Made by a program: the position numbers and the translations under genes
In this document: piece after piece, positions 1 to 42,726 of the stretch
Position numbering within the stretch: position 1 is the stretch's first letter
How the letters are laid out: each line of letters starts with the position of its first letter
The notes under the pieces: generated by a model
Seen by the model: the letters and a program-made list of their open reading frames with translations, nothing else
What the model was told of the DNA's origin: nothing
Database searches by the model: none
Source of the DNA: Catajapyx aquilonaris
Lineage: Eukaryota
NCBI GenBank assembly: GCA_000934665.2
Contig: KZ538007.1
Location: 124,001 to 167,285 of the forward strand
Direction: 5' to 3'
Length of the DNA: 43,285 nt

Positions 1-351
1 CTGACAGAGGACGGTGTTAGAGGACGGGGCAGCAGGAGCAAGGATGGGTATTTCGGAAATCTCGCCACCTTACAAGTGGTCAACTTGACAAACAAACTGT
101 GACCACAAATGAAAGTCTAGATCAAGTCCTAGATCAAGTTGAGTACTTGGTGATTGAAAAATAGTGGGTGTGGAAAAGAGTCGAGTTTCAAACACCCCCC
201 CCCCCCCACCCCTCCCCCACACGCATTTCCGGGCCATTGGTTTGTGAGTCCCCGCGGAAAAGCACCTGGCGCCACTCCGGGTTAATCCGGTCTCCTCCAC
301 CGTAAAGTTTCAACAGCCCGCTAATGGGGAATTTGGACCTGGAAACCGAGG

Positions 352-354
<3 letters not shown>

Positions 355-393
<39 letters not shown>

Positions 394-399
394 AAAAAA
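355..399. repeat. (AG)17 microsatellite followed by an A11 tract
   Basis: Directly visible: 355-388 AG repeat, 389-399 poly-A. Confidence 0.97.
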
Positions 400-461
400 C
401 GTGGGATTGGAAAAATAGAGGCCGTCATAAGTTTGGGTTTGGAGCGACGCATGGGGGTTAA

Positions 462-508
462 CAAAATGGCGGGCTAGTTAGCGGGATTATGCTTGGAGAA
501 ATGGCGGC
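462..508 (+). promoter_or_regulatory. Two YY1/Pleiohomeotic-type motifs next to a GAGA tract
   Basis: caaaatggcgg (462-472) and aaatggcggc (499-508) match the YY1/Pho consensus CAA(G/A)ATGGCGGC. Confidence 0.3.
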
Positions 509-3128
509 TAACGCCAGGCCTAGATGGGCCAACGTGTGGAAAAAGTGTCAACTTAGTTAGTGGGATGGTTGGACCTCCAGAAAAAAAATTCCGTGTTTTT
601 TTACCAGCTTATGTAGACTCAGCCAGGTTTTAATATTTGGGAGTGGGGTTGTATAGTTGTGGGCCTATTAATTTGACTCAAGTCTTTAGTTGCCACTTAG
701 CCTCTTTGAGCTTAAAGACAAGGGGCAAGGAACATGCCAACAAATAAAATGCAAAAATGAGCTACCAATGGCCAAATTGCGACGAAAAAGTGGTCTGCCC
801 ACACTAGAACTGGATGGGCTAACACTTGAACAAAAAAAGGCCTGCGCAGGCTAGTGATTTTTACAAAACGTATGTCCACTTGGGCTCCCTTCCAAAAAAA
901 AAGTCAGCTATTCTAAGTTGGACGGTAGCCGCCATCGTCCTGCGGGCACAATACACCGCAATTTCTGCCCACTCGCAATCCTCTGGCATAATGAGCAAGC
1001 AAAGTCCCATAGTATGGCCCCCCTCTCCGGTGCGGCACTTGTATCCTCCTCATTAGGCTTCTACTCCAGCCTGGCTCTTCTGCCGAGTCAAATGGCCGCC
1101 GATGCACTTCCACGGAGCATCCAACCGAAGGCATCTCATCATATGCCCCAAACGTACGCCATTTCAATTTTCGCACTTTGTCTTCGTGGGCAGAAAATTA
1201 TCGGCAATCAACCTCAGGCAGATTCAGGCCTATTTCGGAAATTTAGGAGCGATTTTTTCATTAGTTGTGCTATTTGAGCGTGACTCATTATCCTGTACGG
1301 CTTGACCGTGCACTCAATTTAACTTATCTTACTAATAGAATTTACGTAGACGGATAAATATGTTCATTAACTCATGATGGTCAGCTTTATGTAGTTATTC
1401 ATGAATGCCTTCCAACAATTGCTGAAAAGGAGCTATTGTGACCGTGTTAGGTGCACATACTGTCACACAGGTAGGCTTATTATTATCCTATTGTGATGCG
1501 TTGATTCTTCCGCATCCCTACATTGATGCTCAAAGCCTACCAGTTATAATAGCTGCCTAAATGACCATGGTGTTATACAAGCACAGCTATATTTTTGACA
1601 CTGAAATAACCTGCTTGATGACATTTTAACATGTTGCGCAGGAATAATGATTTTACATTCTTATAGGAAGTGATTTGAAGCTGTCGATTTCACCTTCATC
1701 TTTATGCTATAAAGAAGCTGCATAGCAGTTATATTCACTGCATTATGTTATTACTAAATGGTAATTAATGCAATGCACTTAGGCTTACGCTCTCTAGCCT
1801 TCAGGAAGCAGTAATATTAAACATATTTTGTTTACACCTAGTGGTATAAAACACTGCAGGCTATAAAAGCTTCGCTACAGTAGTGATGTGTTGCTTCTAA
1901 CTTGTTATTCCTGATAATTTTAAACCACAGCAGCTCCGTATAATGCGCAAGTCATCGTTGCATCATATTCTCATTTACCAGATTCATCTCACCACTGATC
2001 TTACTTTAAGCCCAACTTTTTCACCTCCTTTCTACTTGTAAGATCAACCAATCAATGTCACATACTGCACTATAATTCACATTTAATACCTACCAAACGC
2101 TACTGTAAACTGAAGTGTTTACCACATCTTGGACCAAAAAGGGACCCCAGACTACGACAACACGACACTGTCACATGCACGTCAGACTGTGCGCAAAAGA
2201 ACCGCCTATGATTTTTACTGTAGAAGAGGGTTTTTGAAATGGTCTTTCCTTCCTGAAGCTACATCTATCTCCATCCCGACATTTCCCGTAAGCAACGTTA
2301 TTGCCAGCGACGGATTCTCCTTTTTTAAAAAAAGAAAAATCTTCTCTTTTTTTGATCCGAGAGACTTCATCTCACAGCTCGGAGGCTCTCGGAAACCTCG
2401 AGCAGCCGGAAGGGGTCTTTCTAACCGAGCCTAACAACCCTCACCGGAATTTGGCCCCGCCGTTAGCCCGGCTTAATTGTACTACGAGAGAAATAGAGAC
2501 CAATGATGGTGCGGGGGAGAGATGTGGACGGAAGATTGGGAGAAGATAAAGTTTTTTTTTTTTTTTTTAAAATAGTAGAGGAGAGAGGGGCTGAGTTTGC
2601 CCTCGGTTCAGGTCAGGCTCACCATTTCAAGTGGGGTCCTTCTCTGTGAGGGTTGGGTACTTTGATCAGAAATAGTAAAAGTAGGCCTACGTTACTGTGC
2701 TATTAAAGGGGATGGTTATGTGCGGTTTATCAGGCGTGATTTCATTACGATGCAATGCCGTTTAGAATGGAGGATTCGAGGTTTTTTGGGGATGGTACGG
2801 AATAACCAGACTTGACGTGGGTGACCAAATAGGGAAATTCAGCACCTAATCCGATCAAATTTTCTGAACCTAACGATAGGCACTCCTGACAAAGCGGTTA
2901 GCTGCAATGGGCAGTGTGAGCGTCCCTGCAAAGAAGACCGACAATTACGCAAATTGTTGCTGCACTTTATAGTGTGCACAATAGAAACATGTGGTGTGAG
3001 CACACGATCTGATGTGCAATGAATATTTCAACCTAATCAACAAATCCTGACTGTTCTCTTGTAGTGTTACCAAAAATATTTTAGACGACTCGTACACTTT
3101 ATTTCGTATATTCACGCACAATATACAG

Positions 3129-3200: not shown

Positions 3201-6200
3201 AGGGGCTAGGTGTTCAGACACAAACGCGAGGGGCGTGGCTTAGTCTCCGTATCCCGCAGCGCATGCGCTGTGCTTGAACTCTCTAGCAGGACTCTCCCTG
3301 ATTGTTAACTACCTCGTTATTAGACTAGCCTCGTCTCCAGCTCTCTCACAGACTTGAAGCGTCTCCCCAGGTCCGTCACATGACATATTCCCGGATGCAC
3401 GCCATCTCCTGGAAAAACTGCCAACTCACACCATTAACTCCATCTACTGGATGCGGGGGATATCACAAGCTGTATAGATCGTAGGCTTGTGAACTGGCAC
3501 ACAGAAACAGAAACGACACTAAAAATTTTCTTTTCACTTGCTGCACAATACAAATAAAAATATGCGTCAAAATTAAAGTTATCAGCATATCAGCGCATTA
3601 CAACTTCCTTCTTTAACCTGGAAATTGCAGGAAGTGGTGAATGCTATTTCGAGGGTTTGAAAGTAGGGGTAATTGTGACGGCCGCCTAATTGCGTCTACC
3701 CCCGGCAAATTTCCTTCAATTTCCTGCCTCTTAACTAACCGCCATAATAGAGGCAAGCCTTACGGAATTCAGAGTTGGAAACATGCAGGAAATTATTCCA
3801 GCCAACCACGATTGCCCTCCCCCACCTAACCTCAGAAAAGCAAAGCCGTCACAACATAAAGGTACATCAGTTCAAGTCGTCCACGAAATTGGTTTCTCGA
3901 GAGGGCAAGATCCATTCCGACCATATTGCTCTCGAATATTTTCACATGCCGTTTTGTATAGATTGTCGACCCGCAAATGTGTGCCAGGAACTTTTCTTCT
4001 TTTTTTTTTTTTTACTTAGCCAGAGGGGATTGAGGGTCCTGGCTGCAGGAAGTGGCTGCTGCATTAGGAGATGGCTCCCGGCCATGTTTTCTGCAGGCTG
4101 ACGACTATCAATCCGAGGCGTTGCTGCGCCCCACCAAAATCCCTCATCAATCGACTTTTCGGGGGATTGGGAGGGAAGGGGTGGGTGGGATAACATTTCT
4201 TGGGAGAAGACGAGCCAGCAGGTGCAGGATATATAGACGGTACTTGCTATAAAAAAACACATTGGTGCATTGATGTTAGAGACGATTTTCAGGTTGCTAT
4301 AAACTTTTTTTGAAATTTTTTTATAGTGCTTTAAACCGTTGTGGATGAGAGGTGTGCGTTGGATATTTGCCAGCAGAATTTTTGCGCGTAAGTAAATGAT
4401 GGGTTTTGAACGGCTGCACATTGTACGGATGCATGCTGAATTCGATAACGAGTTAGCATGGAGTAGGAAAGAATAGCTTTGGTCATTATGGAAGAACAAT
4501 CTGTAACGTTTTGTACATATCGGCAGCGATTGGGAAAATGGTGCGTAATATGAATTATGTAATGTTGGCAACAGCATGAGGCGAAACATTTGAAAGCGTA
4601 TTCACAATACTAAGAGAGACCTGAACAGCGAACAATACAACTGGTTTATTTGGAAATGCACGGTATGAAAGCAAGCTTATTATAATTTTTCCCTCATTTC
4701 GGGATATTTCATGAAACGAGATTACATTTCATGCAACACATTTACGCTCAATTGGACTGCCAATGCATCACTAAACATTATTGGTTTCTACAGCTTAAGT
4801 GCGGTGTAGTAGTTCGGTTGGTATTATTATTCGCAGTCACGCACATGCATGATCATTTAATATTGAGCAATCTGCGGCAGGTTAATTACTGTTTTGTTAT
4901 TACAGTGAGCAAAATTGACCCATGTGTTTGTGTAGTAACAGAGCTTTTTCACAAAGGCCATGAAATTAGTGCCCCCCTTTACCCAAAAATAGCAGTAGAA
5001 TCAACGGAGCGCCTGTATACTAGTCTGCATGCATTACAAAGGAGGCTCATAGGTTAGCGTCCTTCCAGGATGAACCGCTGCATTCAAGGTCACTCAGGCC
5101 TGAACACTACACGTTTCACAAGCTTATACTCATCATTTAACTGCCTTATACTCTATATGCAGAATAACTCATAGACTACGACAGAATATAAAAAGGGCAG
5201 TAATGAGGTTTAGAAAGTTTTATGAAAAGTTGCGTTCTCAAAGGGTTTTTTTTTCAGGCATACCCGATAGAAGCAGGACTTACAAAAGAATTGAAGAAAA
5301 AAAAACTTAGAGGAATATTTAAGTCCTAAAGGCAACTTTTGTACAGAAATACATAGTTTGCAGTTTGGCAATATTGACTATAGAAACAAAGTCTCATGTC
5401 ACACCCTGTACACTTTGACATAGACAAAACTGCTCAATTGGACATCCGTTTGAGTACCGAAAAAAGTGGGCAGCAGCTCACAAAGCAACGAAGGGTCTGA
5501 ACGTTGAAAACAAAACTGCCTTATATCCTCCCCATAGCAAAAAAAATCCAGAAAACAAAAAAAAAACATACAAACAAACTTGAGCGAAGTTGGATTAGCT
5601 TTTCCTGGCTTGAAGTCGACCGCGAACTGAAGTGGCGCTTTGGCAGTTTCAGGATGGAGATTATTTGCTGGTTGGCAGAGAGTGCTGTGAAGAAATGGGC
5701 AGGAAGGAAGGCAGAAATAATGAAGGGAGACAAAGGGGAAGAAGGATCAGAGATAAAGAATGAGGTGTTGTATAAGGATCAAGAGAAATGCTGCGCGGGG
5801 GCCGACTCTTCATCTTCGTCACTTGTCTTGTTTCTTCTCGCCCCGGATACAGGGCCTAGATAAAAGGAATTGCTCTTTTTGTCCTCGAGTGTCGCAGGAG
5901 AGTGCGAACGGGAATGAGCTAAACTGCAGTAATAAAGTTGACCACGTTATTGGCCCGATAAGAGCCACTCGGGAATTTAGGACGCAACGTGCGGAAAGGG
6001 TATCAACCGCAATGACTCTCGTTCCTACCCCGAGTTACGATCACGTTCTGATCAGCTGAGTGGAGGATATTCGCATAATGTTGCAGTTCCACACTTGATT
6101 GTAAAAAAACACACACAATGTCCACTTTCATTGGAGGCGAGAAATCTGAAAGACTCATTACGTCAGCCGTTACAAAAATACTGCCATACCTACATTTAGC

Positions 6201-9200
6201 TCGGTATTTAATATTGCACATTTGAAACTAGGGCAAGGCCACAGCTATGGACGTGGAAGTTGGAGTAAGGGACTGTCCACAAAAGTGCAGGATAAGGCTT
6301 ATACAAAAATTATTAGCATAATCTGCCATGAAATGCTACTCTGGCTTTTAAAAAGTCTAGAAGTTGGTTTAAATTCGACCATTTTTTGGGACAAATGAAC
6401 CAACACAATTTGGTAGATTAAATGTACCCATATGTTTGAGTGAAAATTCCAACCCAATAATGAGGGTTCGGTTGACCTGCACAGGCACAGTGGCACAAAC
6501 GGGCACAAATGCTGAGTAACGTCCCAGCCATTAGGTAATGATATAAATGGTTTTATCTACACCACTATATGGTAATACAGTAGAAAATATTCAGGATATT
6601 ACCCAGGAAGTTGATTAATAATGAGAAAGTTCACATCTGGTTAGGATGATATTTTAATAGCCCATTTCATTGTGGTTACCTTCTTACTTTAGAGGAGGGT
6701 TTGAACCTCCAGGTTGTCTCTTTATTCAGAAAAGCATGCTGTCATACGGCCCAGTAGACGAGTCCATACTTAACTGGAGTCAATATAGTGTAATTGTGAG
6801 ATCACAGAGGCTCCTGGTCAGCTTCTCGGTGGAACGAATCATGCTCACACTGCAGCAATCAGAGATACTTGAGTTTCCCAGAATATTGAGTGCCATGAAG
6901 CGATTCTGGTTTTCTCAACCCTACTTCCGGCTAGATTATGGACTACGGAAATTCAGGTGCAACGTCTGGATCCCAGAAACCTGAGAATCCACCCTCTGTC
7001 TGATGGGCAAACGAGTTAGTCATGGTTGGCCCAAACCATCTACCCTTCCTTTCTTGCTCAGCTGATGATACAGTATGCCGAGAGGTACTCCATTTCCAGT
7101 GACATGTACTGTAAAATCATGTAATAGGCTACCGTACAGTTCCGAGAATGACTCCCCACAGAATTTTCAAATCTAGTGAAACTCGAGAATATACCATTCA
7201 GAATTACAGTGTACAGTGTACTGAGCGTGATCTAATAGCAAAAAATTCATCCCATGCATGGTATAATGTCACAGAATAGAGCTTTCTGGTGCAGTTTCTG
7301 AGAGGAAGTTCAGTTGTTCTACTGTCAATGCAAGGGCTGTGTAATTACTTTTCGAAAACTTTATAGTATATATACTGATACTATACTGTATAGAGAGAAA
7401 CATTGAGTGTAATTTAGTTGGTTTTAAGTTATTTACACCACAAAGTGGCATCTTGGCTGTTCTATCGTCTACTTAAGTCCATTTAGTCCTAAAGATTCAT
7501 AATTAGCCAGGAAACCAGAATTTTATTTATTCACAAATATTGTACTGGTATGTAAGCACCTGCAAATCACAGTCTTCGATATTCTCTAAACTATTTTTTT
7601 TGGACGGTGAATTTCACTTTATGCCGACGATATAATACCTTATAAGGTGTATAACGCATACACCGTAAAGCTCTTTTGGACTTTATCCAGTACCATTAAC
7701 ATGCTTGGGCAACACCATATAACGCATCACACAGAAAACTCATTCGAAATCAAGTACACACCCTGAAATAAAATCACAAACGTCCCCAAACTCCCTCTCT
7801 TATCCGCACCGCCATGTCAAAAAAAAAGTCCAGAATGCTCCTAATTAATTGGCCACTGCAAGACTAAACGATAAAGCCGGTTTTGGTAGAACATGACTTT
7901 GACTAAAGAAGCGGTAACAAAAGTTGGAGTGTCCAGTAACCAAATCCTGGCAGTGGTGGCTTGGGTAACCCCTCTGTTTGCCAACGTCTTTCTCTCTCCC
8001 GGCCCGAAAATCAAACCGAGATTAAGGGGCTTTAAAGAGCGCACTGACCACCATCCCCACCAAAAACGCCCGCCTCTAGCGCCTCCCTCTCCTCCAACCG
8101 CCCCCTTTTCCTCCAGCGCCAGCTCCACTTGGCTTCCCTTGCGAAATGACCGCTGCGTCTGACAACCTGGCGTGAATAATTGGGAGATGGCGACTTCCGG
8201 AACGGCGATTTGGGGGCAAGGGTGCGGCGAACGAGTTCGCATTTGCCACGGCTCTGGGGCCTCACCCTAACATACGGTAGCTTTTAGGCTACCAGGAGAA
8301 AAGAGGGAGACATAAGAGAGATATCTGGTTTTTAGAGGCCTGTGCACTAGGTCTGTTGAATAACCCTAACTGCAGAATGTCTGGGATTAATAGTTCAAAG
8401 TGGTGTTTACGGTGTCTTGGGTTATACTTGCGCTGGCTGGTGGATTCTAGTGCGGTTGGTATCGATGCCGGTAAATCATGGGTGATATGCATCGTGACTG
8501 GCAGTCTTTTTTGACAGTAACTTATTACTGCACTGGAAATATTTCAGGGTGATGTGCATACCCAGCGTCAAGTGCTGTCGAGGTTGGCGTGCTGCCATGA
8601 TATTGGTGGAATGATAGGTCGCGTAATTTCTACAGGGTGGGCTTAAAGTCAGCTCAGGAATTTCTGGAAACAAAAAATTGAATATCGTTGCACTTTATGG
8701 CTCAAAGCTAAGTAGATGATGCGGCGATGTTGGTATCGAACGTTTCGCTAGCTACTGTATTCCGGCTCTTGAAATTAAGTTTTGATATCTATGTATGATT
8801 AATTTCGGCAAATAATGTTCCCCGTTTTGGTTCACTGGCTCGCACTTCCCGATAAACTCTACTGAGCAAGTCTAGGCTTAAGTTATCGATGCAACTTGCT
8901 GAATACAATCAAGGTGTCATTATGCCATGATGAATAGATCTTTTTGTCAATAAATACACCGATAGTTATGGAGATGGTTTCTTATTTATGGTCATTCTTT
9001 TTTCTAACACAGTCATAAATAATAAGATGCCCGATTCAGTATCTTGCATCAGTCTAATAAATCGGTAAAATTTGCTGTAAGGTTGTATTATTTGGGTTGT
9101 GCATAGTTTTGGAATAATTCAATAACTGTAATCCCGACAATAATCACAAAATTATCTTGTGTACTTTTCTGCTACTTAGCTACTAAGTAGGCCTACTCTA

Positions 9201-11174: not shown

Positions 11175-11322
11175 GGGTTCAATTATTAGTTCCAGCCACT
11201 TTACTAACCTGGTCTTGAAGCAACCATTCACACACACACACACACACACACCTCCTCACCGTAGAGCCTGTGCGAAGGGTTGCTTCAAGACCAGGATAAA
11301 GTGGCCAGAACTAATTGAACCC
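11175..11322. mobile_element. Short foldback element/MITE with ~50-bp imperfect inverted arms and an internal (CA)11 tract
   Basis: gggttcaatta..agttccagccacttta..cctggtcttgaagcaacc pairs with ggttgcttcaagaccagg.ataaagtggccagaactaattgaaccc. (CA)11 at 11229-11250. No clean target-site duplication (TSD). Confidence 0.75.
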
Positions 11323-14108: not shown

Positions 14109-14255
14109 GTATCATCAGTTCAAAAAGAATTGTCCCAGTCATCCTGACGTGTGGGCTGGCCGCTCGACACACACCATGTAAGTTACATGGTATGTGTCGA
14201 GTGGCCAGCCCACACGTCAGGATGACTGGGACAGTTCTTTTTGCACTGTTGATAC
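14109..14255. mobile_element. Near-perfect 147-bp palindrome (hairpin MITE)
   Basis: 73-bp arms around one central G (14182), 5 mismatches and no gaps; preceded by TA-CAGT as in Tc1/mariner-type ends. Confidence 0.85.
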
Positions 14256-14260
14256 ATATA

Positions 14261-15646: not shown

Positions 15647-15973
15647 CGGGGGGTTTCGACTTTTTTGTCCGAACAGTTATCGGAAAATTGCACGTAGCGG
15701 CTACTTTGTAAGCAGTGACTTGCAACCGGTGATTTGTCGGAGAGGAATGGATAAAAAGAGGGTCACACATCCCATGGCATGTGTGACCCTCTTTTTTCCA
15801 GGCTTGACCTTCAATTTTCAGCGGGCAGCACGTATGGCACTTCAACCTACGATTCGTAGGGAATATTCCCCGTTCCTCCAAAAATCACCGTTTGCAAGTC
15901 ACTGCTTACAAAGTAGCAGCTACGTGCAATTTTGCGATGACTGTTATTCGGACAAAAAAGTTGAAACACCCTG
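15647..15973. mobile_element. Tc1/mariner-type MITE, 327 bp, ~100-bp TIRs, TA TSD
   Basis: Left TA-cggggggtttcgacttttttgtccgaacagttatcggaaaattgcacgtagcggctactttgtaagcagtgacttgcaaccggtgattt matches the reverse complement of the right end TA-cagggtgtttcaacttttttgtccgaataacagtcatcgcaaaattgcacgtagctgctactttgtaagcagtgacttgcaaacggtgattt. Internal palindrome at 15753-15796. Confidence 0.92.
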
Positions 15974-16075
15974 TATACTGTATATTTCCTACATAATGAG
16001 ACTGCAGAGTATTAAAATATTAACTACCAATAACCACCTTGTATAATTATGATGCTCTTCTTTCTAACATATTAC

Positions 16076-31300: not shown

Positions 31301-33799
31301 ATCTATTGTTGATATGAAGAAAACGGCAAAAAAGTAGGTGGGATTCCATTTGGCAATAATCCAAAGATAAGATTTATGATCCCTTGTATGCATCCATTTT
31401 CGTTACTTGCGACCCCATTATGCTTTGTCACATGATTTGTCTGGTTCAGATCCCATCGCCTCAAGAACACCGACTATAAAACACTTTCCCCAAGACAAAT
31501 GCTGGACCATGTAGACCATTTCAAATTGAAAATCTCCAGCGTGAAATGACTCCAGGAAACATTTTGGCTTTTCCTCTATAGAGTGAGAGAGCAAATTCTG
31601 CGGACAGTGTCGCTGTGTTTTGCCTCCCCCTTTTACCCCAACCCTGATTGCAAGCAAGCCGAGTTGGCGACGCTACTTAGGCGCTGATTTATAGGCAGCG
31701 ATTTGCCCCTGCTGAATAAGGTCGTCGCTTTCCGTCTCCTAAAGCCATCGTTTGCACAATGCGAGTTCACAGTCCCCTGGTAAGAGAGGGGGTCCAATGA
31801 AAAGGGAGTCCGCGTAACAAAGCTGGTCCAGTTATCAAAAGGACATTAGGGTCTACCCTCTTTGGTCCAATCATGGCCTCACTCCATTTTTTGGCGGGTA
31901 CTTGTCCAAAAGCCACTTTTATCAAACGACAGCAATCTTTTCCGTAGCAGCGATCTCTCCTACTTAGCACCCGGGCGCGATTTAGCTCCCATTATCCCCG
32001 TTCATGCTGCAAATAAAGCAACTTGCCTTTCGTTAGCGCTTTACAACTCCCTAGGCAACCCTTTACAAGGCCCTTTAGAAGCTCAGAAACGTCAAATCAG
32101 GTCGTTAAAGGCGAATTTCCTCCAGGAAGCGAGCGGGATTTGGTCCTTATTTTGGGCTCTGGAGACGATGGGAGTTTCGGCTGGGGTAGTAGGGGGGAGG
32201 GGTGGGGGGTTAGAAGAGGAGATATGTCTCTAGAGGGATTCTCTTCCCGAGTGCGTGCGTCGGATTGTTCCCCAGATTCACTCATTTAAATATCCGCCGC
32301 TAAAAAGGAGCCAAGGCGCCAACCCACCCCACACAGAAATTTCTACTAGCACACTACACTGGGGAATACCCGCAGACTTAATTCCGACTCTTGCCAGGGC
32401 CCCAACTCTATTACAACTTTCCGTTGCAATTGAAAATTATTCTGCCAACTTTGTCCCATACACAGGAGAATGAATTTTACTTCCTCTAGCATTAAAGTAG
32501 CCTTGCTCCATGCAGCAGTGCTCGAGTCAGGACCTGACCGATGTTAACGATATATTCTGGTACCGAGGGGGGGGGGGGGGGGCTGAGGATCTATATCACC
32601 TTTGAAGCTGGCTGATCACCATTTATCAAGTCGGTTTATAACAAATGTAGATTTCAGGGGATGCGGATGCAGCGGTTTCGATTGGATGTCGCTACATTGG
32701 ACCATTTTACGTTTTTCAGATAAGTTACACCTACACTGAAATTAGCTTGAACCGAAGACATTCAGATTCAAGGTAGTTAAAAATAACTGGTTAATATGGT
32801 ACCACATTATGTAGACCCTCTTTAAAAACTTGCTACCTTCTACTCTGGGATCGCCTCTGATACCTGAGTGACAATTTCGGTGCATCAAAAAGTAAAATCA
32901 TTGTAGCTTGATGATTAGGAATGCTCGTTATCCTGAAAGTTTTGACAACGTTCTCTACAGTATTCGTGACCAGGCATTTGCACCAGGAACAAGGATGGCC
33001 GAGTCATAATGAAAATGTATCCAATTAGAGACAGTCACCATTTGCACGCATGGTCATGAATGTAGAAGCAGCAGGCTCTTCATGACTCTTACCAACGGTT
33101 CTCTAAAAATTTAATTTGTCCCATTGCCGCATTGTTGTTTTTTTTGGTATTCTAACAATGATCCATTATTTTTCGTAAAAACTGACACTACTCACGTACC
33201 TAATAAAATATTTTATGACATGACATGTCTAAAATTCACGCCCTTATTTTTATGCACAGTTGAAAAATTTTAGTTGCAAAATAGTCTGAAGCTACAAAAA
33301 AAAATCAATTCGTATTCCCTAGCCAACACTACGCAACGTTTCAACGTGTTATCCCCGTTGTAGTGCACCTAATGATACATTTTAAATGAAAATCTGCATA
33401 AAGTAATGAGGTTTACGCCGTACAGTTAAAGAGCGAATAGCCACGTGCTTGTTTTAAATGACCGTGACAGGAGGCGGAAATGACTTCATGATTGCAACTT
33501 GTCTCGAATGGCCACACCTATTGTCGAGTTTAGACCGTGTCAAAAAAGCGGGACAGAATAGTTCTGACATGCATCACCCCCCGAGCTCTATTTGACACAG
33601 CCTAACACGTTCATAACAATGGAACTCGGGCCTTTGCTGCGGCTCTTCACAGAGCTCCCTCCCCACCTCTCTATTCCTCTCTTTATCGTGAGTTTCCAAC
33701 TCATCGGGCGCATCATCCACATCAATAGAATCTGCACGTAATCAGAGCTCATCACACTGCGCATGCACAAACCAAAATGGAGTCCAACCTGTTGTACAC

Positions 33800-33811: not shown

Positions 33812-36800
33812 AGTGGTGAGAGAACTCTGTATGCAAAGGATTTTTAAAAATCTTTAAGTAATAATGAAGAAGTTGATGCAGATACGACGATGCCTAAACA
33901 TTTAATGTAACGTAATATCCAATCCAACTTTTCTCAGATAATGGGCTTTTTGAGCCACGTTGAAAATCGATGCCTCATAGTCTTATATTGTCTTACTTTC
34001 TAAGAATATGGTGAGTTCAGGAGAGCAGGAGAGGGTGTTTCTTCGGAGTTTACCATTAAAGAAGCAATCATAATCTGCATTTTCTATATGACACCATCAT
34101 GCAGTACATTAGAGAAGCAAAGTTAATACGCATCTCATTATCTAGTCTTACGGGAATCAATAATTACAATGGCTCTGAAGCATGTGTTTGTTTTTCAAGT
34201 AGTCTGAACTGTTTTAGCTTTAAAATCAATTGGACCATCACATTATAAGTTTATAACAAACTATAGTGAGCGTATAAGCAACTGATCATAGCTCTCGGAT
34301 CATTATGTGCATACAAGCAAAATAATATTGTCCTTACAACCCATTTCTCGTACAGTTGCATCAAACAGAGTTGTAACATAAACATTGTCACAATTGTAAG
34401 CCCCTAGTCCTTTTCCCTCTCCTTTCCCCTCCCATTTTTCACTTTTCCCCTCATCCCTGTTGCTAGGCAGCAAAATAGATTTCCACACAAATCCTAAATA
34501 ATGGGAAAAACCAGTATAAACCAACCAATTTGGTCCCCTACTCACATCCCTAAACTCTTGTCTATGACCTCTCATAATACCCAATTTGGTGTCATTTTTT
34601 AAAAGTCTTGTTAGAAGGTGTGACACCTTGAGGCAGTCAAAAATGGCGGCTCATTCCACAAACCCTACCTAAAATTGAAACGACACTGATCAACTAAAGA
34701 GGCTGATTTTTGTCCGAATTGAGATCAAAAGCAGGCCATTTCAACTTGATGAGCCCCCACGTTTCTAGGCCTACAGCCTAAAATTGGCGCCCAACCTGTT
34801 GTGCCCTCCCTCTTACGAGAGTCATAGGTCGGAAAGCGGAGATCCTTAGTAGGCTAGGTTCTCCATTTCCTTCCTCCATTGATGCCGATTGACTTGGAGC
34901 ATCGGAAGGGTCACCTTTCGGAAGGGCTTTGACGACCGCCTGCCCCAACTCAAACTCTTACTTTCGCCTTCACGCCATGATTTCCCTAGGGGAACTTGGA
35001 AGGTATAGGAACCACCCCCATTGGACACTGCTGGAAAATCCCGAGGGCAAGGCAGGACCCGGAGAATTGAGGTTAGGGAAAGAAGAAAAGGAAAAGGGAA
35101 GAAAGGCAGAGCCAATTGGATCATGCCACAAAAGAGGAGTCATAGGGGACAGCTTTTGCGGATTTTTTTTGGAGGTGTTTCAGATCCGATTTACGCATCG
35201 CCTGAAGATGTACTGTAGCTACATTAATCGCTTATTTAACCTGCCTTGCTCAGTGTGGTGGCGAGATTACAATATCAGTAGTTAGTATCCTCCGGCACCC
35301 GTACAGATGGTAGTGGAGGATCAACATGAAATAATATCCGTTCTAGCCCGGTAGACTGTACACGCTGCAGGCCCATATGTAATTTATTCCAAATCCGTAC
35401 AAAAAACAGGTTACCGTTCTGGCCTAACACTGCATGATGTGATCGATACTATGATATGTGGCGTAGAAGGCAAATGGGCCGCCTTAATTAAATTTGTATT
35501 CCAATCATTGGAATTGCTTTGTTCGGAATATTCCACCAGTTATGTTGTTGCACCTGGACGAAAAATTGGTCGTTCCGCAATTGCATTTTGGCGACGTGTC
35601 ATGATCAACATGTCTCATAAAATGATGAGAGTAAAGCAGTATTGTTGCAAAATTGAAATCAATCTCGTTGGTCGAGTGTGATTGCCAAGTAATTGCATCG
35701 ACAAAGCCATGTCGATAATCTAGAGTGCCAATTTATTTGCGTTTCTACACAGTTTCTCTAATTAGGACACGGGAATGATGCTTTTTTATTCTGAAAATGC
35801 ACACTTTTTGATTGCACTGATTGGCAAACATTGCGCTTACCCCCCAAAATAATCAAAGTTAAAAAAAAACACATATGAATAACCAGTCATGTTTTGATGA
35901 AATGGGTTACTGTATTGGACACATACAGTAAAGTCAGTTGTCTGCCACAGCAATTCTTATTTGAAAGAAATGCAACCCAACAAATTCTCATTGGCAACTT
36001 TAAAATCATTCCAATGTTAGTCTGATCGTTCCGAATTTCAGGTCTTCATATCGATCAGAACCGTCCTTCAAAAGAGGCGAATAAATGCAAAATAGAATGC
36101 GAGTACTTCTGACGAGAATATGTAACATTCACTTGTGAAATATGTATGACAATATTACGAAGGAGGAGGAATGGAGCACTTTGAACGGATCGTTAAGTTT
36201 TATTCCGAACATGTTTCGGGTGAATCTGCTCTAGTGTCATTTAGTCAGAGAAGCTACCTTCGACCTCCCATGCTCCCCACCATTACCTCCCTCTCCTCCC
36301 CCCCTCCCTCGATTCCTTTTTTTTTCTAAATATTACCAGTGACAGCATGATAAGCGTATCAGGAAATATGAAAGTGGGATCGCCAAATAACCTCTTGAAA
36401 ACCTATAAAAATCGGGTAGTCGGCTCTTGGCACGTTTCCCAACTTTCCCGCCTTCCCCCTCTCCCCACCTTCTTCCCTCCAACCTCCATCTTCCTTCACG
36501 AAAAGTGCACATCCTAAAAGTCGCAATTTACAAACTAGTTTTGATCCGGCTGACACAAAGTTGAGAATGTCCACTACTTAGGACCAGAAGAGCATGGGGA
36601 ATCCGGCATTTTCTGTAGGACCCAAGGGGGCATACAGGAAGGTAGGGGCGATTATTAAACCTTTGCGTGATTCAGCTGCAGACTAGGCCCTTTTAGCTTA
36701 TAGGTCCTATAGGGGGATAGTGCAGAAGGGTTTTCCTCAAAGGCATAAAATGCCAGGGCCCATAAGATGCCATGTGGACACCACCGCACGTTCTCAGTCA

Positions 36801-39800
36801 CCTTATCGGCATTCAGCCAGGATTGCACACGAAATTGCTCCAAACCTTGCCTGGGCTAGAGCTGCAAAAAAAAATGTAATATTAAAAAATTGATCCATTG
36901 TGTCGATCATAGTGATGAGACGTGGCTCTTGTAGTACCCCTGTATTTGAGCCTTTTTGCGTATGGAAACGGTTCATGTTTTGGATCCTTCACCCTGTTGA
37001 TCCTGCTGGGGCCTACAGGCTCCTTTTCCACATTTCAACCGCTGTCTCCCGGCTTCCAATAAAATATTCATAGCCCTCCCCCTCCTCCTTACCAGTTGCC
37101 TTCCTTCCTGCCTTCTTTCCCTTTCAACAGGAAGCCCCCTCAGTTCATCGCATGTAGAATTTCCACCTTATTTTCCACGTATCTGACCTCGCCACAGGGG
37201 GGCGGAACCGCTTGCCAATAAACCGGCTGGGAAATTATGCAAAACTGCAAGTATTGGCAATACCTGCCGCTTCGGTACCCGAAAGAAACTTTGTAGCCTA
37301 TCCGCAATTTTACCCAAAACAGGGATCATCCTAGTAGTCCTGCTTAATAGGAAAATTAACCTGAATTGTGCACTCCCCCGCCTCTTAAATGAGAAATGCG
37401 GAAGCTCACTCCTGGATTCAAGGCACGGCGGCCTCGTGACAAAAAGTGAGACGATTTGGCCTCCTTGGTTATCGCAAATCGATGCCTCTCCACGCCTACA
37501 AAGCTCGTGGCTAAGACCATCCATCCAATCCACTGCAACGAATAGCGATCCAAGAGCGATGAGCGAAAGGTGTGTCGCCGAGGGGTTCAAAGCGCCCCGT
37601 GTGTCGGAAATGATTACTAGAGCATGCCTGAATCTTTGCTAACAAGCTAGTACCACATATGATGAGTTCCAACCGGTTCCAACAATTGAAAGAACTTCAG
37701 TCGAATGTGACCTAAAAATCTGGATTCACAGCAATACCCTCCTGCTGTCTTCCATTTGGAGACAAAAGCGACACATGATGTCGTAGGTCGTCACATACCA
37801 CTAGATTGCGCGCACGGCACATCAAAGGGCGCTTGGTACAACAAAAAAAAGCTACCAAAGAGGAAGGGTAAAGAAGGAAAAAAAATCTGAGAGAAGTCTC
37901 CACAAATGGAGGAAACGGACACGTGTCCCTTTCGACGCTACAAGGAATTGATTCAATTCCGGACCGGGATGAAAACGGCTCCGTTCGCCGAGAAAATGGG
38001 ATCCTGGGATGCCCTCTGGGCCAAGGCAAGAAGATGAAGATCACTGGGTGAGTGGTCACCCCTACCTATCTGGGAAGAGTCACGGCTGCCCTTTATCAGC
38101 TCCCAGGAAATGGTCGCTTGCATACAGGAAATCAAAAGCAATCATTTTTGCTCAATATATATGTACTATCAGATACATTGTTTTGTGTCAATATTTACCA
38201 GATACAATGTGCATGCTTGTGAATGCAACCTAGTAATAATAACCATATTGTATTAGTGTAGATTTTCTACACTTTCTATTATACAAATTTTTTGCGCTTC
38301 ATATCTCTAAAAATATAAAATTCAATGTGAGCTACTGAAAACAATATTATGCTCACGAGTTGCAACATCCAGTTTTTTTTTGCAAACATCTCGTAGCTTT
38401 GTTCCCAACTGCAACTATAGATAGAGAGCTATCTGTGATCTTGGTGCAATGCCGTGTAGAAGTGGAAAAATAAAATAATCCACTTCTAAACGGCATAAGG
38501 AGTAGAACAAAAATAACAGTGTTAATTATGAACACTGTTGTTTATGTTCTACTGCTTATATTGCTGCATCATATCTGATGATGAAACTGAATTTCTAATA
38601 ATATCTGAAATTATGAGTAATGTTAATGAGGAGTTTTCAGATTATTACAAGCTGAATCAGAAGTTCAAATATTTTTCATTTTTATCTGAATTGTTGAACT
38701 GATAATAACAAACTGGCGAGTTACTGTGTGCCAGTTTATTTCATTTTATAGCTAATATATTGCCGCTGCCCACGATACGTTAGTTGAATAGTCGTTCTTT
38801 AAATGTCACTTGAAGTGCCTTGAGAGTAAAATAATCTTGAATTCGGCCTGCGGCGAGGTCAGGAGAACGCATGGATAGCAAGTTTGAGGAATGGAATGCT
38901 GTGCAAACTTAGTTCGGCTGAATGGTTTGAGGGCAGGGTTGGCAATTGGGAAAGGCGAAGCTGCCATGGCCATCTGGCAACAACTGAGGGCACCAAACAC
39001 GGACTGCAAGCTGTGGCCATCAGATTTGACAGGCCCGTCCATTGGGAAGCCAAGTACTGTCATGGCCAGGACCCAGGGGAGTGGCCAACACAGCACACGA
39101 AACTGTCCTTGCGTTGCTTCGTATTTTTATTTTTATCATTTTTATTTGCGGTCAGCTTGAAGCTATATGGTTTTGTAAGTCAGCTGTGTGGATCGTCTCT
39201 GCTGAAAGTGGCCTATTTGATTCAAAATATAATTAATATTAATGCCATTTAAATTTAATAACAAGTTGCAAATTTTTTTGCAGCTTTATCATTATCAAAT
39301 AATTTGGAGTTCAATTTTTGAATTTTCAATAAAGCGTTTTACGCATTAAGCTGTGTTTTTGACACCCACCACTTCGGTTTCATTATCAGACCTAAACCTC
39401 TACTCCTATGCTTCCCCACGCAGATGAAAATGACTGCACTGTTGGTTCATAATAACAAGGTGTACTAGGTCCAGTGCAAATCATACATCAAACTTATCTC
39501 GTTTTAACGAGCGCATTATTAGTGCCTGCAGCAGCGCAGCAAACATAATCAGCTACATCTGCCTCACCTCAGGTTACTTGTCGAACGTCATAACACTAAA
39601 AAAAAGCCACATCAGCTACTGAATAGGCAGCATGCTGAAGTTTTTAAAATAGTGGGTTAACTATATTCGGATAGATGTACAGTACCTTGACCACTTGTCA
39701 AAGTAGATATTGTACACAATCCTGAAGTAATAACGTCCATTATATGCAAACTGGATGGTGTTATTCTGTCAGCAAATCGGTATGGCGCTATTTGGGCGTT

Positions 39801-40195
39801 TTGAAACCGGAAGCCAGTTTACAAACTTATCTGGTCACATTAGCGTATTTTATCCACTTTACACTAGCTACTGTGGAGGGCAGTTTCAACAATCAATATA
39901 ACACCCATACTGTTTGCACGCTCTTGTGTCACGTTTACTACGGTAGGCCATAACGTTTTTATAAAAATAATATTACAAATATTCATTGGCGGAATATAAT
40001 TTGCTATTTGTGAATTGCCCTCCGGTGAATCAGATATGTTGACAGTTGATGGTTCCTCGTATGTTTCGACAATGTTTAATATACAGGGGGTTCATTTCAG
40101 TTCAAAAACAGCGTTGTTTTTAGCGATGTTTTAGAGGAAACATCTGGTATGATATTAAAATTTTAAATATGCTCTAATAATCTGACTGTTTCTGA

Positions 40196-40417
40196 CAGTG
40201 GCGTAGGCAGGCGGGGGGTTGTAACCCCCCCTCCCCTTGGACCCAAAAGAATATAGTTCCAATCCGCAATTTTAAGGTGTTAAAACGCACATGCGCAAAT
40301 ATTATAGCTTATGTGAGCTTGAACAGCAAAAAAAAAATCGTCTGCGGCGGGCCTCTTCGTTCTACCCTCACATAACCCCCCCCCCCCCCCATTCCCTTAC
40401 AAATTTCCTGGCTACGC
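40196..40417. mobile_element. hAT-like MITE with a clipped right terminus
   Basis: Left CAGTGGCGTAGGCAGG, right CCTGGCTACGC, with subterminal G/C runs. TTTCTGA flanks both sides (40189-40195 and 40418-40424), consistent with an 8-bp TSD plus a small deletion of the terminal CACTG. Confidence 0.75.
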
Positions 40418-42657
40418 TTTCTGAGCATATGACGTCAAGGTCCTGATAATTCCGTGAACTTTCCATTGGTTAACTCAGCAACATGAATCCCTCTATCGTA
40501 TACTCCATCCTACTCTTATTACAAGCACAAGGCGTGGTCGAATTAGACGCGCTTAATTCAAAACCGGGCGATATTAATGTACATCTTGCAGGCGTTATGC
40601 AAAACAGAACATGAAAAAAAATATGTAACCGCTATTTCTGCATGTACCTTTTATGCGAGGTAAAAGCACGAGAGAGCTTTCCAAAAAAAAAATCGGAACG
40701 CATCTGTGGTACTTCCAGGCCGGAAGCGTGAATCTGAACCTTCATTATCCATTCCCGCACTTCTTTCACTGTACAAAAACCGGGCTGTGGGGCAAATTTT
40801 GCCTTTTCACAGCGATCTAAAACCTCAGCAGAATTCCTCTCTACCTTGGTTCCCTCTACGCTCTACCCACTTTTCAGGCAACAGCGTTCCGTGTTGTTCT
40901 AATGCATAGAGATCAAACAATGCATCTCGCCTAGAGATGTTTCCAGGCTTTCACCGATACCTCGTTCGAGATCGGGCTAATTAATGAAGCAGCAGGCTTC
41001 GGATGCAAAGTGCTTGCGGAAGAAGAGAGTTTGGGTAAAGGCGAAGTATGGAAGAGGGTATAAGAAGGTCGCATGGAGGCAAGACTTTAATAAATTGACA
41101 TGGTATTGTGCTACTACCTGAGTAATACAGGAAATGGCAAGAAGATTACTCAACTTGGATTTGACTTGTGCATCAGTATTGACGGGGAATAAGAGGCACT
41201 ACTCAAGTTCCTTTCCATGATGCTTGGTAATTGTGCTAAGGTTTGTGGGGTGTATGGTGGTTTCCTTAACCACAATCTTCCAGTAGGCCTACAACCTCCC
41301 CCTGCCCTGCGACCACGTGGATGCGGGAAAAAGCCTAGTCCCTTTGCGGAGGTCGGACGAACGGATGGCGGCCAACAGTAGTGGTCGAACCTTGTGTAAA
41401 CTGGCCTTAACCACCATGAAACATGTCCCACAAGTTTGGATAGAAGCAGAATCTCTTTTAATACGCCATTTCCGAAAATTGTGACAGCAAGAAGCGTCCT
41501 AATGGAATACACCACGACACACCGCCCTCTGCTCTAAGAATAAAATCTGAATTTTATCCCTCGCCTAACCACAGGCGCAAATGGAAAGGGAGAGAGAGGG
41601 TATACTATTGATTCCAAGAATGGAAACTGCAAAAGACTCCATCCCACTTGGGGCTGCACAGTTTAGGATGACAACAAAGACTGTCAAGTTCTGCATAAAG
41701 TTTGACACCCACCCCACCCACTACTTGTCCTCCCTTCACATCCTCCTCCTCGTCTTATAGCATCGCCATCGTGATCTTGCTCCTAGCTGCCGATCTTCCA
41801 ACTTGCTCAACTTTCTCAACGGTGCCATTCTTCGGAGCATCTGCTCCTCATCCAAACCATCTCTGAGGGAAAACTATCGGGATTTCGCACTCTCTTACAA
41901 ACAATCCGGAGACACGGTGCGCGCATTTCAAGTTTTCGCCATAGAAGTTAGGGAAGGGCGGAACAGGGATGGGGAGAATCATGCTACTGGCCTGGAAGAA
42001 CAATTCTATTATATATCAGCCCCATTCTTTATATCCCCTCCTCTTTTTTTTTTGAAAAAAAAACGCGCGTTCCGCATCACCTGCACTATTGTGTGGAAAA
42101 GCGAGGACATTTTTACTACACAAGTGCAGGCAACGGCAGTTAATCAGCACGTTCTTTTCATACACACCTATTGATTGCAACAAAAAAACATGTGCAGGTC
42201 TTGTCGCATAATGGCCAAATTGCAAGTTAGAGCTCCCCTCACCCCACTACCACCACCTCTCTCCACAACAACCCCCTCACCCCCCGGCAAAATCAATTTT
42301 ACATAACGCTGATTCTGAGCAGGCTGAGTAACAATGAAGAGTGGGAGGAGAGGGGTGGTTCCAATATTTTTTTAAACGCCGCAAAATTTGGCCAAATGTG
42401 GCGTCCAGGGCATTAAAAATGGAGGACTCGACGGGCCTGAATATTAGATGGTAATCGCGGTGGTAATCTGACTGCTCGTGCCATAGTGGCCATTTTGCTC
42501 GATTTGAAATTAATTGTGTTTACAGTGTTATACGCCCACCTAATAACCGAAAATCGACAGACCGAAATCCTCTTAATCTTTTGTATAATACCAACCGGCC
42601 ACTCGTCTGCTCCACACTCAAAATGCGCACCATTCCGCTGACAAAAAATAATGGCCA

Positions 42658-42725: not shown

Positions 42726-42726
<1 letters not shown>

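What the first reader, a model, noticed from the sequence alone, without database searches (positions are those of the whole stretch)
1..42600. Quasi-periodic GC-rich islands (~every 1.5-2.5 kb), most with a C/A-rich to G/T-rich strand-skew flip
Seen: GC- and homopolymer-rich islands centred roughly at 0.3, 2.5, 4.0, 5.7, 8.1, 10.2, 11.7, 13.1, 15.0, 17.0, 18.4, 19.7, 22.4, 23.5, 26, 27.6, 30, 32, 34.8, 36.5, 37.9, 40.9 and 42 kb, separated by AT-rich troughs that hold most of the MITEs. At most islands, clearest in the first 23 kb, the + strand is C/A-rich on the left and G/T-rich on the right. Hand counts in 60-nt windows (C:G), left versus right: 1981-2040 19:4 vs 2761-2820 6:21; 7741-7800 21:4 vs 8401-8460 8:23; 9721-9780 16:4 vs 10621-10680 7:23; 14441-14500 23:5 vs 15181-15240 4:20. 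These windows were chosen by eye, and a few islands (18.1, 25.8, 29.9 kb) show G-runs before C-runs. The islands share no obvious sequence homology, so they are not a repeat family, and one-way transcription of the host gene cannot give a sign flip. Inference: each centre is a long-lived site of a strand-symmetric germline process. Candidates are bidirectional transcription from dense enhancers/promoters, fixed replication origins, or recombination hotspots (resection mutagenesis plus GC-biased conversion). A ~2 kb sawtooth would be an unusually fine-grained genome architecture.
Basis: partly seen in the sequence, partly recalled or inferred. Interest (0 to 1): 0.75.

Follow-up and report, generated by a model that had tools for sequence, protein, structure and literature searches.

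The report
GC-rich patches with outward G-rich flanks
In this long non-coding stretch of an animal genome, a handful of unique GC-rich patches are C-rich on their left and G-rich on their right, much like two-way promoters, but there is no true 2-kb rhythm.

Summary
Partly confirmed. The window is 43 kb of single-copy non-coding animal DNA with MITE hairpins and one LINE fragment. GC peaks tend to have C-rich left and G-rich right flanks: antisymmetric cross-correlation z=4.0, reached by 0 of 372 circular shifts; 35 of 50 peak-to-trough half-units are G-rich on the outward strand (p=0.007). The effect is small (mean skew 0.044). It rests mostly on about nine peaks with GC of 50% or more, nearly all in the first 23 kb, and it sits 200-500 bp from each peak rather than forming a sawtooth. 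A/T skew is not robustly coupled. Periodicity is not supported: there is no autocorrelation peak, and the 1.5-2.5 kb band has p=0.15 (GC) and 0.06 (skew) against AR noise. The islands are not repeats, inverted repeats, CpG islands, exons or hairpins. A C-then-G pattern reads the same after reverse complementing, so it does not require a strand-symmetric process. Best reading (0.4): clustered promoter- or enhancer-like elements whose G-rich, R-loop/G4-prone strands point outward. This resembles mouse head-to-head promoters and Drosophila R-loop peaks. It is untestable here without RNA, chromatin data or the genome.

The parts
1981..2820 (.). Island near 2.46 kb: C-rich left arm, T17 run at 2552, G-rich right arm; upward skew flip at 2462 (step 127)
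   Evidence: C:G 19:4 at 1981-2040 against 6:21 at 2761-2820
3700..4400 (.). Island near 4.06-4.16 kb: T14 run at 4000, then a G-cluster/G4 motif at 4161-4181; upward flip at 4161 (step 104)
7463..9141 (.). Island with peak at 8138 (smoothed GC 0.548): pyrimidine tracts at 8040-8110, flip at 8168 (step 140); outward skew 0.27 left and 0.17 right
9142..10876 (.). Island with peak at 10421, flip at 10136 (step 101); outward skew 0.07 left and 0.21 right
10877..12484 (.). Island with peak at 11808 (GC 0.557): C-run/G4 motif on the minus strand at 11671-11705, flip at 11708. Its left edge holds the high-copy MITE at 11005-11170
14387..15547 (.). Strongest island (peak 14924, GC 0.544, flip 14937, step 183). 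Nested C-tracts at 14722-14743 and about 14890-14912, then G-tracts at about 14940-14965 and 15080-15104. A7 lies on the left and T7 on the right. Divergent pair of G-cluster (R-loop-like) zones: 14387-14906 on the minus strand and 14949-15547 on the plus strand. The assembly N is at 15149
16448..17325 (.). Island with peak at 16976, flip at 16915; outward skew 0.14 and 0.15
17326..19384 (.). Island with peak at 18527 (GC 0.516): C-runs at 18262-18410, flip at 18749 (step 121).
20995..23058 (.). Island with peak at 22385 (GC 0.538): C-tract/G4 motif on the minus strand at 22264-22288, flip at 22470 (step 118)
31849..32297 (.). Island with peak at 32185 (GC 0.508): divergent pair of G-cluster zones, 31849-32073 (minus) and 32170-32297 (plus); weak flip at 32124 (step 61)
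34169..35882 (.). Island with peak at 34941 (GC 0.504), flip at 34817 (step 94); outward skew 0.18 and 0.06
1..1735 (.). Counter-example: GC peak at 1017 (GC 0.500) with G-rich left and C-rich right (both flanks inward)
38535..39309 (.). Counter-example: GC peak at 38978 with a G-to-C flip (left outward skew -0.23)
11005..11170 (.). Palindromic MITE (67-nt arms, 93% complementary), very high copy (word depth about 45,700 against about 30 for unique DNA). Not part of the islands
14109..14255 (.). Palindromic MITE hairpin (73-nt arms, 93%), high copy
15637..15983 (.). MITE with nested inverted repeats, high copy; it accounts for the weak 'GC peak' at 15835
42726..43109 (+). Fragment of a non-LTR retrotransposon endonuclease; it explains the strong G/T skew at the right end of the window
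   Evidence: 53% identity to a reverse-transcriptase protein, E 9.7e-28

Best explanation
The window is a single-copy, non-coding stretch (a long intron or gene desert) of a small animal genome, probably an arthropod. It carries unique GC-rich patches 0.3-0.8 kb long. About nine to eleven of them have a two-sided build. Pyrimidine/C-rich tracts, often with an A-run, lie on the left. G-rich tracts, often with a T-run, lie on the right. On each side the strand reading away from the centre is therefore G-rich and prone to G-quadruplex or R-loop formation. I read these as clustered promoter- or enhancer-like regulatory elements. Their skew mostly reflects built-in sequence content: G-clusters on the non-template strand downstream of initiation sites, and polypurine/polypyrimidine protein-binding tracts. 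A smaller diffuse component might be mutational. Shown: the composition, its sign, its statistics, and the uniqueness of the islands. Inferred: that they are regulatory, that they are transcribed, and whether each fires in one direction or two. The apparent ~2 kb rhythm is mainly what smoothing makes of ordinary patchiness.
For: The link between GC peaks and C-to-G flips is beyond chance: z=4.04, 0 of 372 shifts; 35 of 50 half-units; flip-centre GC 0.474 against 0.420, p=0.0023. It is strongest at the most GC-rich peaks, 16 of 18 half-units. G4+ runs lie 50-800 bp to the right of C4+ runs 345 times, against 230 times to the left. 8 of 9 crude R-loop-like G-cluster zones start within about 120 bp of a GC peak and point away from it, with two divergent pairs. 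The outward strand has more G (5756 vs 5352), more T (7120 vs 6771) and more TTTTT (146 vs 83). Enriched words are CCCTCCC, CCCCACC and CT/GA repeats, and CCGGAAG occurs 11 times against 3.2 expected. I recall these as binding-site-like; no call tested that.

The islands are single copy (depth about 30-38) and non-coding: of 146 frames of >=70 aa, the only Pfam hit is the LINE fragment, and there is no 3-base periodicity.

Known analogues have the same sign. Mouse head-to-head promoters show a negative GC-skew peak upstream and a positive one downstream (PMC3882496, passages). Drosophila R-loop peaks show GC skew going from negative to positive and AT skew from positive to negative at the centre, with polypurine motifs (PMC9254486, passages).
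Against: There is no direct evidence of transcription, open chromatin or conservation: no RNA run was usable and no genome or relative was available. The effect is small (mean 0.044) and rests on a minority of islands. It is not significant beyond 23.5 kb, for peaks below 50% GC, or after removing the 6 best half-units. CpG observed/expected is flat, 0.72-0.79 across GC quartiles and 0.69 at flip centres, so these are not CpG islands. Motif enrichment partly follows from GC-richness and low-complexity tracts. One regulatory element per ~1.7 kb over 43 kb would be very dense. In Drosophila most promoters show little divergent transcription (bioRxiv 10.1101/224642, passages).
Confidence: 0.4

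Rival explanations
1. Neutral patchiness. The islands are ordinary compositional heterogeneity: slippage-grown homopolymer and purine/pyrimidine tracts, plus very old, unrecognisable strand-biased debris. The link with GC peaks comes from a few striking cases and has no function.
For: There is no periodicity, and the peak count equals the AR-noise expectation. Only 16 of 25 peaks flip. Significance is lost after dropping 6 half-units, and absent in the second half of the window. Skew is four times stronger inside low-complexity tracts (0.110 vs 0.027). One smoothing setting gives sign p=0.33.
Against: Chance should give equal numbers of C-to-G and G-to-C flips at GC peaks. Yet 0 of 372 shifts reach the observed antisymmetry, 20 of 25 troughs flip the other way, and 16 of 18 half-units at the richest peaks agree. 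A diffuse outward skew survives masking of all runs and tracts (37 of 50, p=0.022). No repeat or family signal was found.
Confidence: 0.3
2. One reading: a germline mutational asymmetry from a strand-symmetric process centred on each island (divergent transcription acting through mutation and repair, replication initiation sites, or recombination hotspots).
For: With the main peak set the outward strand is both G-rich (0.044) and T-rich (0.024). This has the sign, and roughly the size I recall, of the mammalian transcription- and replication-linked skews. A diffuse component remains after masking tracts.
Against: TA skew is not robust (p 0.013-0.57) and is uncorrelated with GC skew across half-units (r -0.12 to 0.13). 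The mean TA step at flips is about 0. Skew is confined to 200-500 bp from the peak and does not decay across the unit. Local skews up to 0.36 to 0.64 are far above known mutational skews (recalled). The 1.7 kb spacing is far below replicon size (recalled). The simple resection-deamination model predicts the opposite sign (my inference). Flat CpG o/e gives no sign of a special mutational regime in the islands.
Confidence: 0.15
3. One-directional elements. Each island is a single oriented unit with a pyrimidine-rich 5' half and a G-rich 3' half, for example a one-way promoter with its transcribed leader or an unannotated non-coding exon. Such units can sit in either orientation, because the pattern is its own reverse complement.
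For: The reverse-complement invariance is a logical point. 9 of 25 peaks have only one outward-G flank. Drosophila R-loop-forming genes show negative GC skew at the start site (PMC9254486, passages), and Drosophila promoters are mostly one-directional (10.1101/224642, passages).
Against: Nothing distinguishes this from the two-way reading with the sequence alone. The two divergent pairs of G-cluster zones and the mirrored A-run/T-run layout at 14.9 kb look two-sided.
Confidence: 0.1
4. Decayed foldback or long-inverted-repeat transposons, whose two arms are reverse complements and so give a built-in C-to-G flip.
For: The genome is rich in palindromic MITEs. A palindromic family would show one polarity whatever its insertion orientation (logic).
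Against: Left arm against the reverse-complemented right arm of the same island scores 12.2, against 12.1 for arms of different islands, p=0.50. Left arms show no family likeness to each other. Folding is no better than half-shuffled controls, and up and down flips give the same result (z -1.08 vs -0.92). The islands have single-copy depth at >=90% likeness.
Confidence: 0.05

Closest known systems
Inverted GC-skew peaks at mammalian bidirectional (head-to-head or lncRNA/mRNA) CpG-island promoters (PMC3882496; GC-skew/R-loop promoter classes, PMC3787257)
   Same: A GC-rich centre with negative GC skew on one side and positive on the other, so the G-rich strand reads outward. G-clusters lie just outside the centre. 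The skew extends a few hundred bp.
   Different: There is no CpG enrichment here (o/e 0.69-0.79 everywhere). GC is only 45-56%. No genes or start sites are known. The density, one per ~1.7 kb inside non-coding DNA, is far higher. The host is probably an invertebrate.
Drosophila R-loop peaks (strand-specific DRIP-seq metaprofile, PMC9254486)
   Same: At the centre, GC skew turns from negative to positive and AT skew from positive to negative (C/A on the left, G/T on the right), with polypurine motifs.
   Different: That is an average over experimentally mapped hybrids, and there the AT-skew change is the stronger one. Here the GC skew dominates, the TA skew is weak, and no hybrid data exist.
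Replication-origin skew jumps (upward jumps of GC+TA skew at origins in mammalian 'N-domains'; recalled, no paper read here)
   Same: The sign of the jump is the same: C/A-rich on the left, G/T-rich on the right.
   Different: The scale is hundreds of kb with a steady decline between jumps. Here the units are about 1.7 kb and the skew vanishes 500 bp from the centre.

Membership tests
GC-skewed CpG-island promoters | CpG observed/expected raised above the bulk of the genome | tested here: not met
   CpG o/e is 0.72-0.79 in all GC quartiles; 0.69 at upward flips against 0.73 at downward flips
GC-skewed CpG-island promoters | [quoted passage not shown] | tested here: inconclusive
   Inverted skew around GC peaks is present, but no start site is known, so its position relative to transcription cannot be checked
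GC-skewed CpG-island promoters | Transcription initiation at the element | not testable with these tools
   No RNA run was usable
Drosophila-type R-loop sites | GC skew turns from negative to positive at the centre | tested here: met
   strongest at peaks with GC >=0.50 (16 of 18 half-units)
Drosophila-type R-loop sites | AT skew turns from positive (A-rich) to negative (T-rich) at the centre | tested here: inconclusive
   z=2.4; p 0.013-0.57 depending on the peak set; mean step about 0 at flip centres; T-runs face outward 146 vs 83
Drosophila-type R-loop sites | RNA:DNA hybrid signal | not testable with these tools
   No DRIP-type data
Replication-origin skew domains | Upward skew jump followed by a steady decline across a replicon-sized domain | tested here: not met
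   Skew is confined to 200-500 bp from the peak and is about 0 beyond; units are about 1.7 kb
Periodic genome architecture (~2 kb) | Autocorrelation or spectral peak at 1.5-2.5 kb above red noise | tested here: not met
   GC autocorrelation is -0.01 to -0.11 at those lags; band p=0.146 (GC) and 0.06 (skew); peak count equals the null; only the spacing CV gives P=0.03
Foldback/MITE-type inverted-repeat transposon | Homologous inverted arms | tested here: not met
   Own arms score 12.2 against 12.1 for other islands' arms, p=0.50; folds are no better than controls
Foldback/MITE-type inverted-repeat transposon | Multiple copies in the genome | tested here: not met
   Island bins have depth about 30-38 at >=90% likeness, against 2,000-45,700 for the true MITEs. 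Older, more diverged copies cannot be excluded without the genome

The most novel reading that the evidence does not exclude
In this species, long non-coding regions are tiled about every 1.5-2 kb by bidirectional, R-loop/G4-prone elements without CpG islands. That would be a very dense array of two-way initiation sites (enhancer-like transcription or closely spaced replication initiation sites) that has left an outward G(+T) imprint on the DNA, an architecture not described for invertebrate genomes.
Probability: 0.1. Interest if true: 0.7.

Novelty: new member of a known kind. Interest (0 to 1): 0.3.

Why it matters
If the outward-G build marks real two-way regulatory elements, sequence alone could flag candidate enhancers, promoters and R-loop sites in poorly annotated invertebrate genomes that lack CpG islands. 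It would also show that the GC-skew signature of vertebrate bidirectional promoters does not depend on CpG islands or DNA methylation. If it is only patchiness, the case is a useful warning. Eye-picked windows and smoothing can make a weak, local asymmetry look like a genome-wide sawtooth. And a C-then-G pattern, being its own reverse complement, says nothing by itself about strand-symmetric processes.

Tried and rejected
- **Earlier findings of this scan:** nothing by place, by relatives or by words.
- **Sequencing runs:** 4 DNA runs of one sample hold the stretch, and no RNA holder is listed. The one extra run (X5) covered only MITE copies when laid, so it gave no information on expression.
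- **More DNA of the same or a related organism:** I scanned with a 19-base MITE word. It gave 2 hits in metagenome contigs and 2 in prokaryote genome contigs. None shares anything further with the window, so they are chance matches.
- **Taxon:** the protein-atlas look-up of the LINE fragment gave no usable taxon. The first homology search found nothing. The second gave two relatives, one named from a weevil, which is only weak support for an arthropod.
- **Coding exons:** of 146 frames of >=70 aa, the only Pfam hit is the LINE fragment. Three-base periodicity appears only at microsatellites and the LINE region. The two longest frames look like junk.
- **Structured RNAs:** 0 tRNAs and 0 Rfam hits at gathering score. 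Five sub-threshold miRNA-model hits all fall on MITE hairpins.
- **Inverted-repeat origin and hairpin folding of the islands:** rejected. One search timed out and was rerun smaller.
- **CpG-island nature:** rejected.
- **Telomere-like, spliced-leader and core-promoter words:** no enrichment, or no matches.
- **Literature:** searches found no description of dense intronic arrays of skew-flip islands in invertebrates. These were three keyword searches of an open-access library, not proof that none exists.

Full report
**What the window is.** It is 43,285 bases with GC 42.9%, CpG observed/expected 0.73 and one N at 15149.

- It is essentially non-coding. Of 146 stop-to-stop frames of 70 aa or more, all scanned against Pfam in two calls (25 and 121 frames), only one has a hit. 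That frame is 42642-43109(+), an endonuclease of the reverse-transcriptase type, below the curated cut-off.
- Trimmed of its microsatellite, that frame is 53% identical to a reverse-transcriptase protein and 43% identical to a protein named from a weevil. It is therefore a non-LTR retrotransposon fragment of animal type.
- There are no tRNAs and no Rfam families at gathering score. Five sub-threshold miRNA-model hits all lie on MITE hairpins.
- Three-base periodicity appears only at a (TAT)n array, the LINE region and two other short spots.
- When the contigs of a DNA run were laid on 4001-24000, the islands had unique-copy depth of about 30-38. Depth was 2,000-45,700 only over the MITE-bearing bins 10671-11337, 14006-14672 and 15340-18007.
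- Self-comparison finds only palindromic MITE-like elements (11005-11170, 14109-14255, 15637-15983, 17223-17358, 24880-24979, 38449-38559 and smaller ones) and one 36-bp direct match.
- No genome is held for this window, so everything below rests on 43 kb.

**Checking the observation.**

- 18 of the 23 named centres lie within 220 bp of a GC peak called objectively (Gaussian smoothing with sigma 150, prominence 0.02). The five misses are 0.3, 36.5, 37.9, 40.9 and 42 kb.
- GC content and G-C counts vary among 100-500-bp windows about twice as much as in shuffles. Windows with |G-C| of 15 or more are 7.4% of all 60-nt windows, against 0.4% in shuffles.

**The link between GC peaks and the flip is real.**

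- The cross-correlation of GC with GC skew in 100-bp bins is antisymmetric. It is -0.13 to -0.16 at lags -200 to -600 bp and +0.11 to +0.145 at +200 to +500 bp.
- The antisymmetry statistic has z=4.04, and none of 372 circular shifts reaches it.
- A step scan (500 bp on each side) finds 20 upward (C-to-G) and 19 downward flips. Upward flips sit in GC 0.474 and downward flips in 0.420, Mann-Whitney p=0.0023.
- I cut the window at 25 peaks and the troughs between them and treated each peak-to-trough half as one sample. 35 of 50 halves are G-rich on the strand reading away from the peak (mean skew 0.044, sign p=0.0066).
- Three other smoothing settings give 44 of 66, 38 of 67 (sign p=0.33, t-test p=0.03) and 28 of 36.
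- G4+ runs lie 50-800 bp to the right of C4+ runs 345 times, and to the left 230 times.

**How far it goes.** It goes less far than the finding says.

- Only 16 of 25 objective peaks flip C-to-G when the 500-bp flanks are compared, although 20 of 25 troughs flip the other way.
- Both flanks are outward-G at 13 of 25 peaks, one flank at 9, and neither at 3.
- The signal comes from the richest peaks (GC of 0.50 or more: 16 of 18 halves, mean 0.086) and from the first 23.5 kb (23 of 32, p=0.006).
- Peaks below 0.50 GC give 19 of 32 (p=0.27). The part beyond 23.5 kb gives 12 of 18 (p=0.47). Without the six most positive halves the mean falls to 0.018 (p=0.17).
- Clear counter-examples are the peaks at 1017, 38978, 25861 and 30041, and the MITE at 15835.
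- The A/T half of 'C/A to G/T' is weak. It has z=2.4, the mean TA step at flip centres is about 0 with four strong cases at 5.6, 8.2, 10.1 and 14.9 kb, p ranges from 0.013 to 0.57 with the peak set, and it shows no correlation with GC skew across halves (r -0.12 to 0.13).
- T-runs do face outward, with TTTTT counted 146 times against 83.

**Periodicity and shape.**

- GC autocorrelation falls to about 0 by 300 bp and is slightly negative (-0.01 to -0.11) at lags of 1.5-2.5 kb. GC skew has only 0.04-0.09 at 1.6-2.0 kb.
- Against AR(4) noise fitted to the data, power in the 1.5-2.5 kb band has p=0.146 for GC and p=0.06 for skew, and no single spectral line stands out (p=0.35 and 0.19).
- The same peak caller finds 23.2+-2.2 peaks in AR noise, against 25 observed. 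The ~1.7 kb spacing is therefore largely set by the smoothing.
- Only the spacing CV (0.327 against 0.43+-0.06, P=0.03) hints at some regularity.
- The outward skew is about 0 within 200 bp of the peak, largest at 300-400 bp (0.095) and about 0 beyond 500 bp. That is a local two-sided pulse, not a sawtooth.
- Of eight MITE-like hairpins, two lie in deep troughs and six sit at GC percentiles 37-62. 'Troughs hold most of the MITEs' is therefore only loosely true.

**What the islands are not.**

- Not a repeat family, and not decayed foldback elements. The left arm against the reverse-complemented right arm of the same island scores 12.2 on average, against 12.1 for arms of different islands (p=0.50). 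Left arms do not resemble each other. Depth is single copy.
- Not hairpin-forming beyond what composition gives. Folding z is -1.08 at upward flips and -0.92 at downward flips against half-shuffled controls, and left-right pairs are no more frequent than in those controls.
- Not CpG islands. CpG o/e is 0.72-0.79 in every GC quartile and 0.69 at upward flips.
- Not exons.

**What they look like.**

- The strong islands carry C/T-rich tracts on the left and G-rich tracts on the right, often with an A-run on the left and a T-run on the right.
- The best case is 14.9 kb. It reads CCCCTCCCT repeats followed by A7 at 14722-14750, a second C-tract near 14890-14912, G-tracts near 14940-14965, and T7 followed by GGGGGTGGGGGGC repeats at 15072-15104.
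- Enriched words are homopolymers, CT/GA repeats, CCCTCCC (24 against 2.6 expected) and CCCCACC (20 against 2.6). CCGGAAG occurs 11 times against 3.2 expected, mostly inside islands. That these resemble protein-binding sites is my recollection, not a test.
- G-quadruplex-type motifs number 6 on the plus strand and 11 on the minus strand, and most lie on the side where they point away from the nearest GC peak.
- A crude rule for R-loop-prone zones (three G-clusters followed by a G-rich stretch) finds 3 zones on the plus strand and 6 on the minus strand. 8 of the 9 start within about 120 bp of a GC peak and read away from it. Divergent pairs lie at 14387-14906/14949-15547 and 31849-32073/32170-32297. 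This measure derives from G-richness, so it is a description rather than independent evidence.
- Skew inside C/G runs and purine/pyrimidine tracts (12.5% of bases) is 0.110. With all such tracts masked (74.6% of bases kept) an outward skew of 0.027 remains (37 of 50, p=0.022). There is both a tract component and a diffuse one.

**Interpretation.**

- A point of logic matters here. 'C-rich then G-rich' is its own reverse complement. A one-directional element with a pyrimidine-rich upstream half and a G-rich downstream half would look the same in either orientation.
- The sign fits G-rich non-template strands pointing outward from a GC-rich centre, which is known elsewhere. In mouse, head-to-head promoters show two sharp inverted GC-skew peaks, negative upstream and positive downstream. 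lncRNA/mRNA divergent promoters show a milder version (PMC3882496, passages read; see also the abstracts of PMC3787257 and PMC4617957 in listing 32).
- In Drosophila, mapped R-loop peaks show GC skew going from negative to positive and AT skew from positive to negative at their centre, with polypurine motifs and a link to H3K27me3 (PMC9254486, passages read). That is the same C/A-to-G/T sign as here.
- My best reading (0.4) is therefore a cluster of promoter- or enhancer-like elements in a long intron or gene desert, with outward-facing G-rich strands.
- Against it: there are no expression, chromatin or conservation data. The effect is small and rests on a minority of islands. The implied density is very high. 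Drosophila promoters are reported to be mostly one-directional (10.1101/224642, passages).

**Rivals.**

- Neutral patchiness with a few striking cases (0.3).
It is weakened by the uncoupled TA skew, the confinement to 200-500 bp, local skews far larger than known mutational skews, and, for break hotspots, an expected sign opposite to the one seen (my inference).
- One-directional elements (0.1).
- Decayed foldback transposons (0.05).

**Verdict.** Unique GC-rich patches and a real but modest C-to-G flip at the richest of them are there; a ~2 kb rhythm and a sawtooth are not. The kind of signal is known, from the inverted GC skew at two-way promoters and at R-loop sites. Its occurrence as a cluster in non-coding invertebrate-type DNA without CpG islands would be a new member of that kind if it holds genome-wide. 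Searches did not turn up such a description, but that is weak evidence of absence. Interest 0.3.

Noticed in passing
window 12810-12851: A 42-nt near-perfect palindrome (88% complementary) centred on TGACGTCA, next to the GC peak at 12988. I recall that word as a CRE/ATF-type site; this was not tested. It could be a paired binding site or a tiny hairpin element.
   Followed up: no
window 11005-11170, 14109-14255, 15637-15983, 17223-17358: Palindromic MITE families at very high copy number (word depth about 2,000-45,700 against about 30 for unique DNA). Several end in TACAGTA-type termini, and one is flanked by TTAA. Contigs of the DNA run join different MITE copies across the window (repeat-induced joints).
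   Followed up: partly
window 42642-43109: The LINE endonuclease frame is preceded by a perfect (TAT)22.7 microsatellite at 42658-42725 that reads through as poly-Leu/Ile. The element is truncated and runs towards the window end.
   Followed up: partly
window 15072-15149: The assembly's single N (15149) and a break between contigs of the DNA run (15071 to 15150) fall in the G-rich tract of the strongest island. Depth there is lower (22 against about 31). G-rich tracts seem hard to sequence or assemble, so tract lengths there may be unreliable.
   Followed up: no
window 23000-43285: Cumulative GC skew falls steadily from about +0.2 to -2.9 across the second half (net C excess on the plus strand). 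A one-way background skew of this kind could reflect the strand of a host transcript.
   Followed up: no
window 195-207, 2552-2568, 32567-32582, 40376-40390, 355-389: Unusually long homopolymers (C13, T17, G16, C15) and an (AG)17.5 array, mostly at or beside GC peaks.
   Followed up: no
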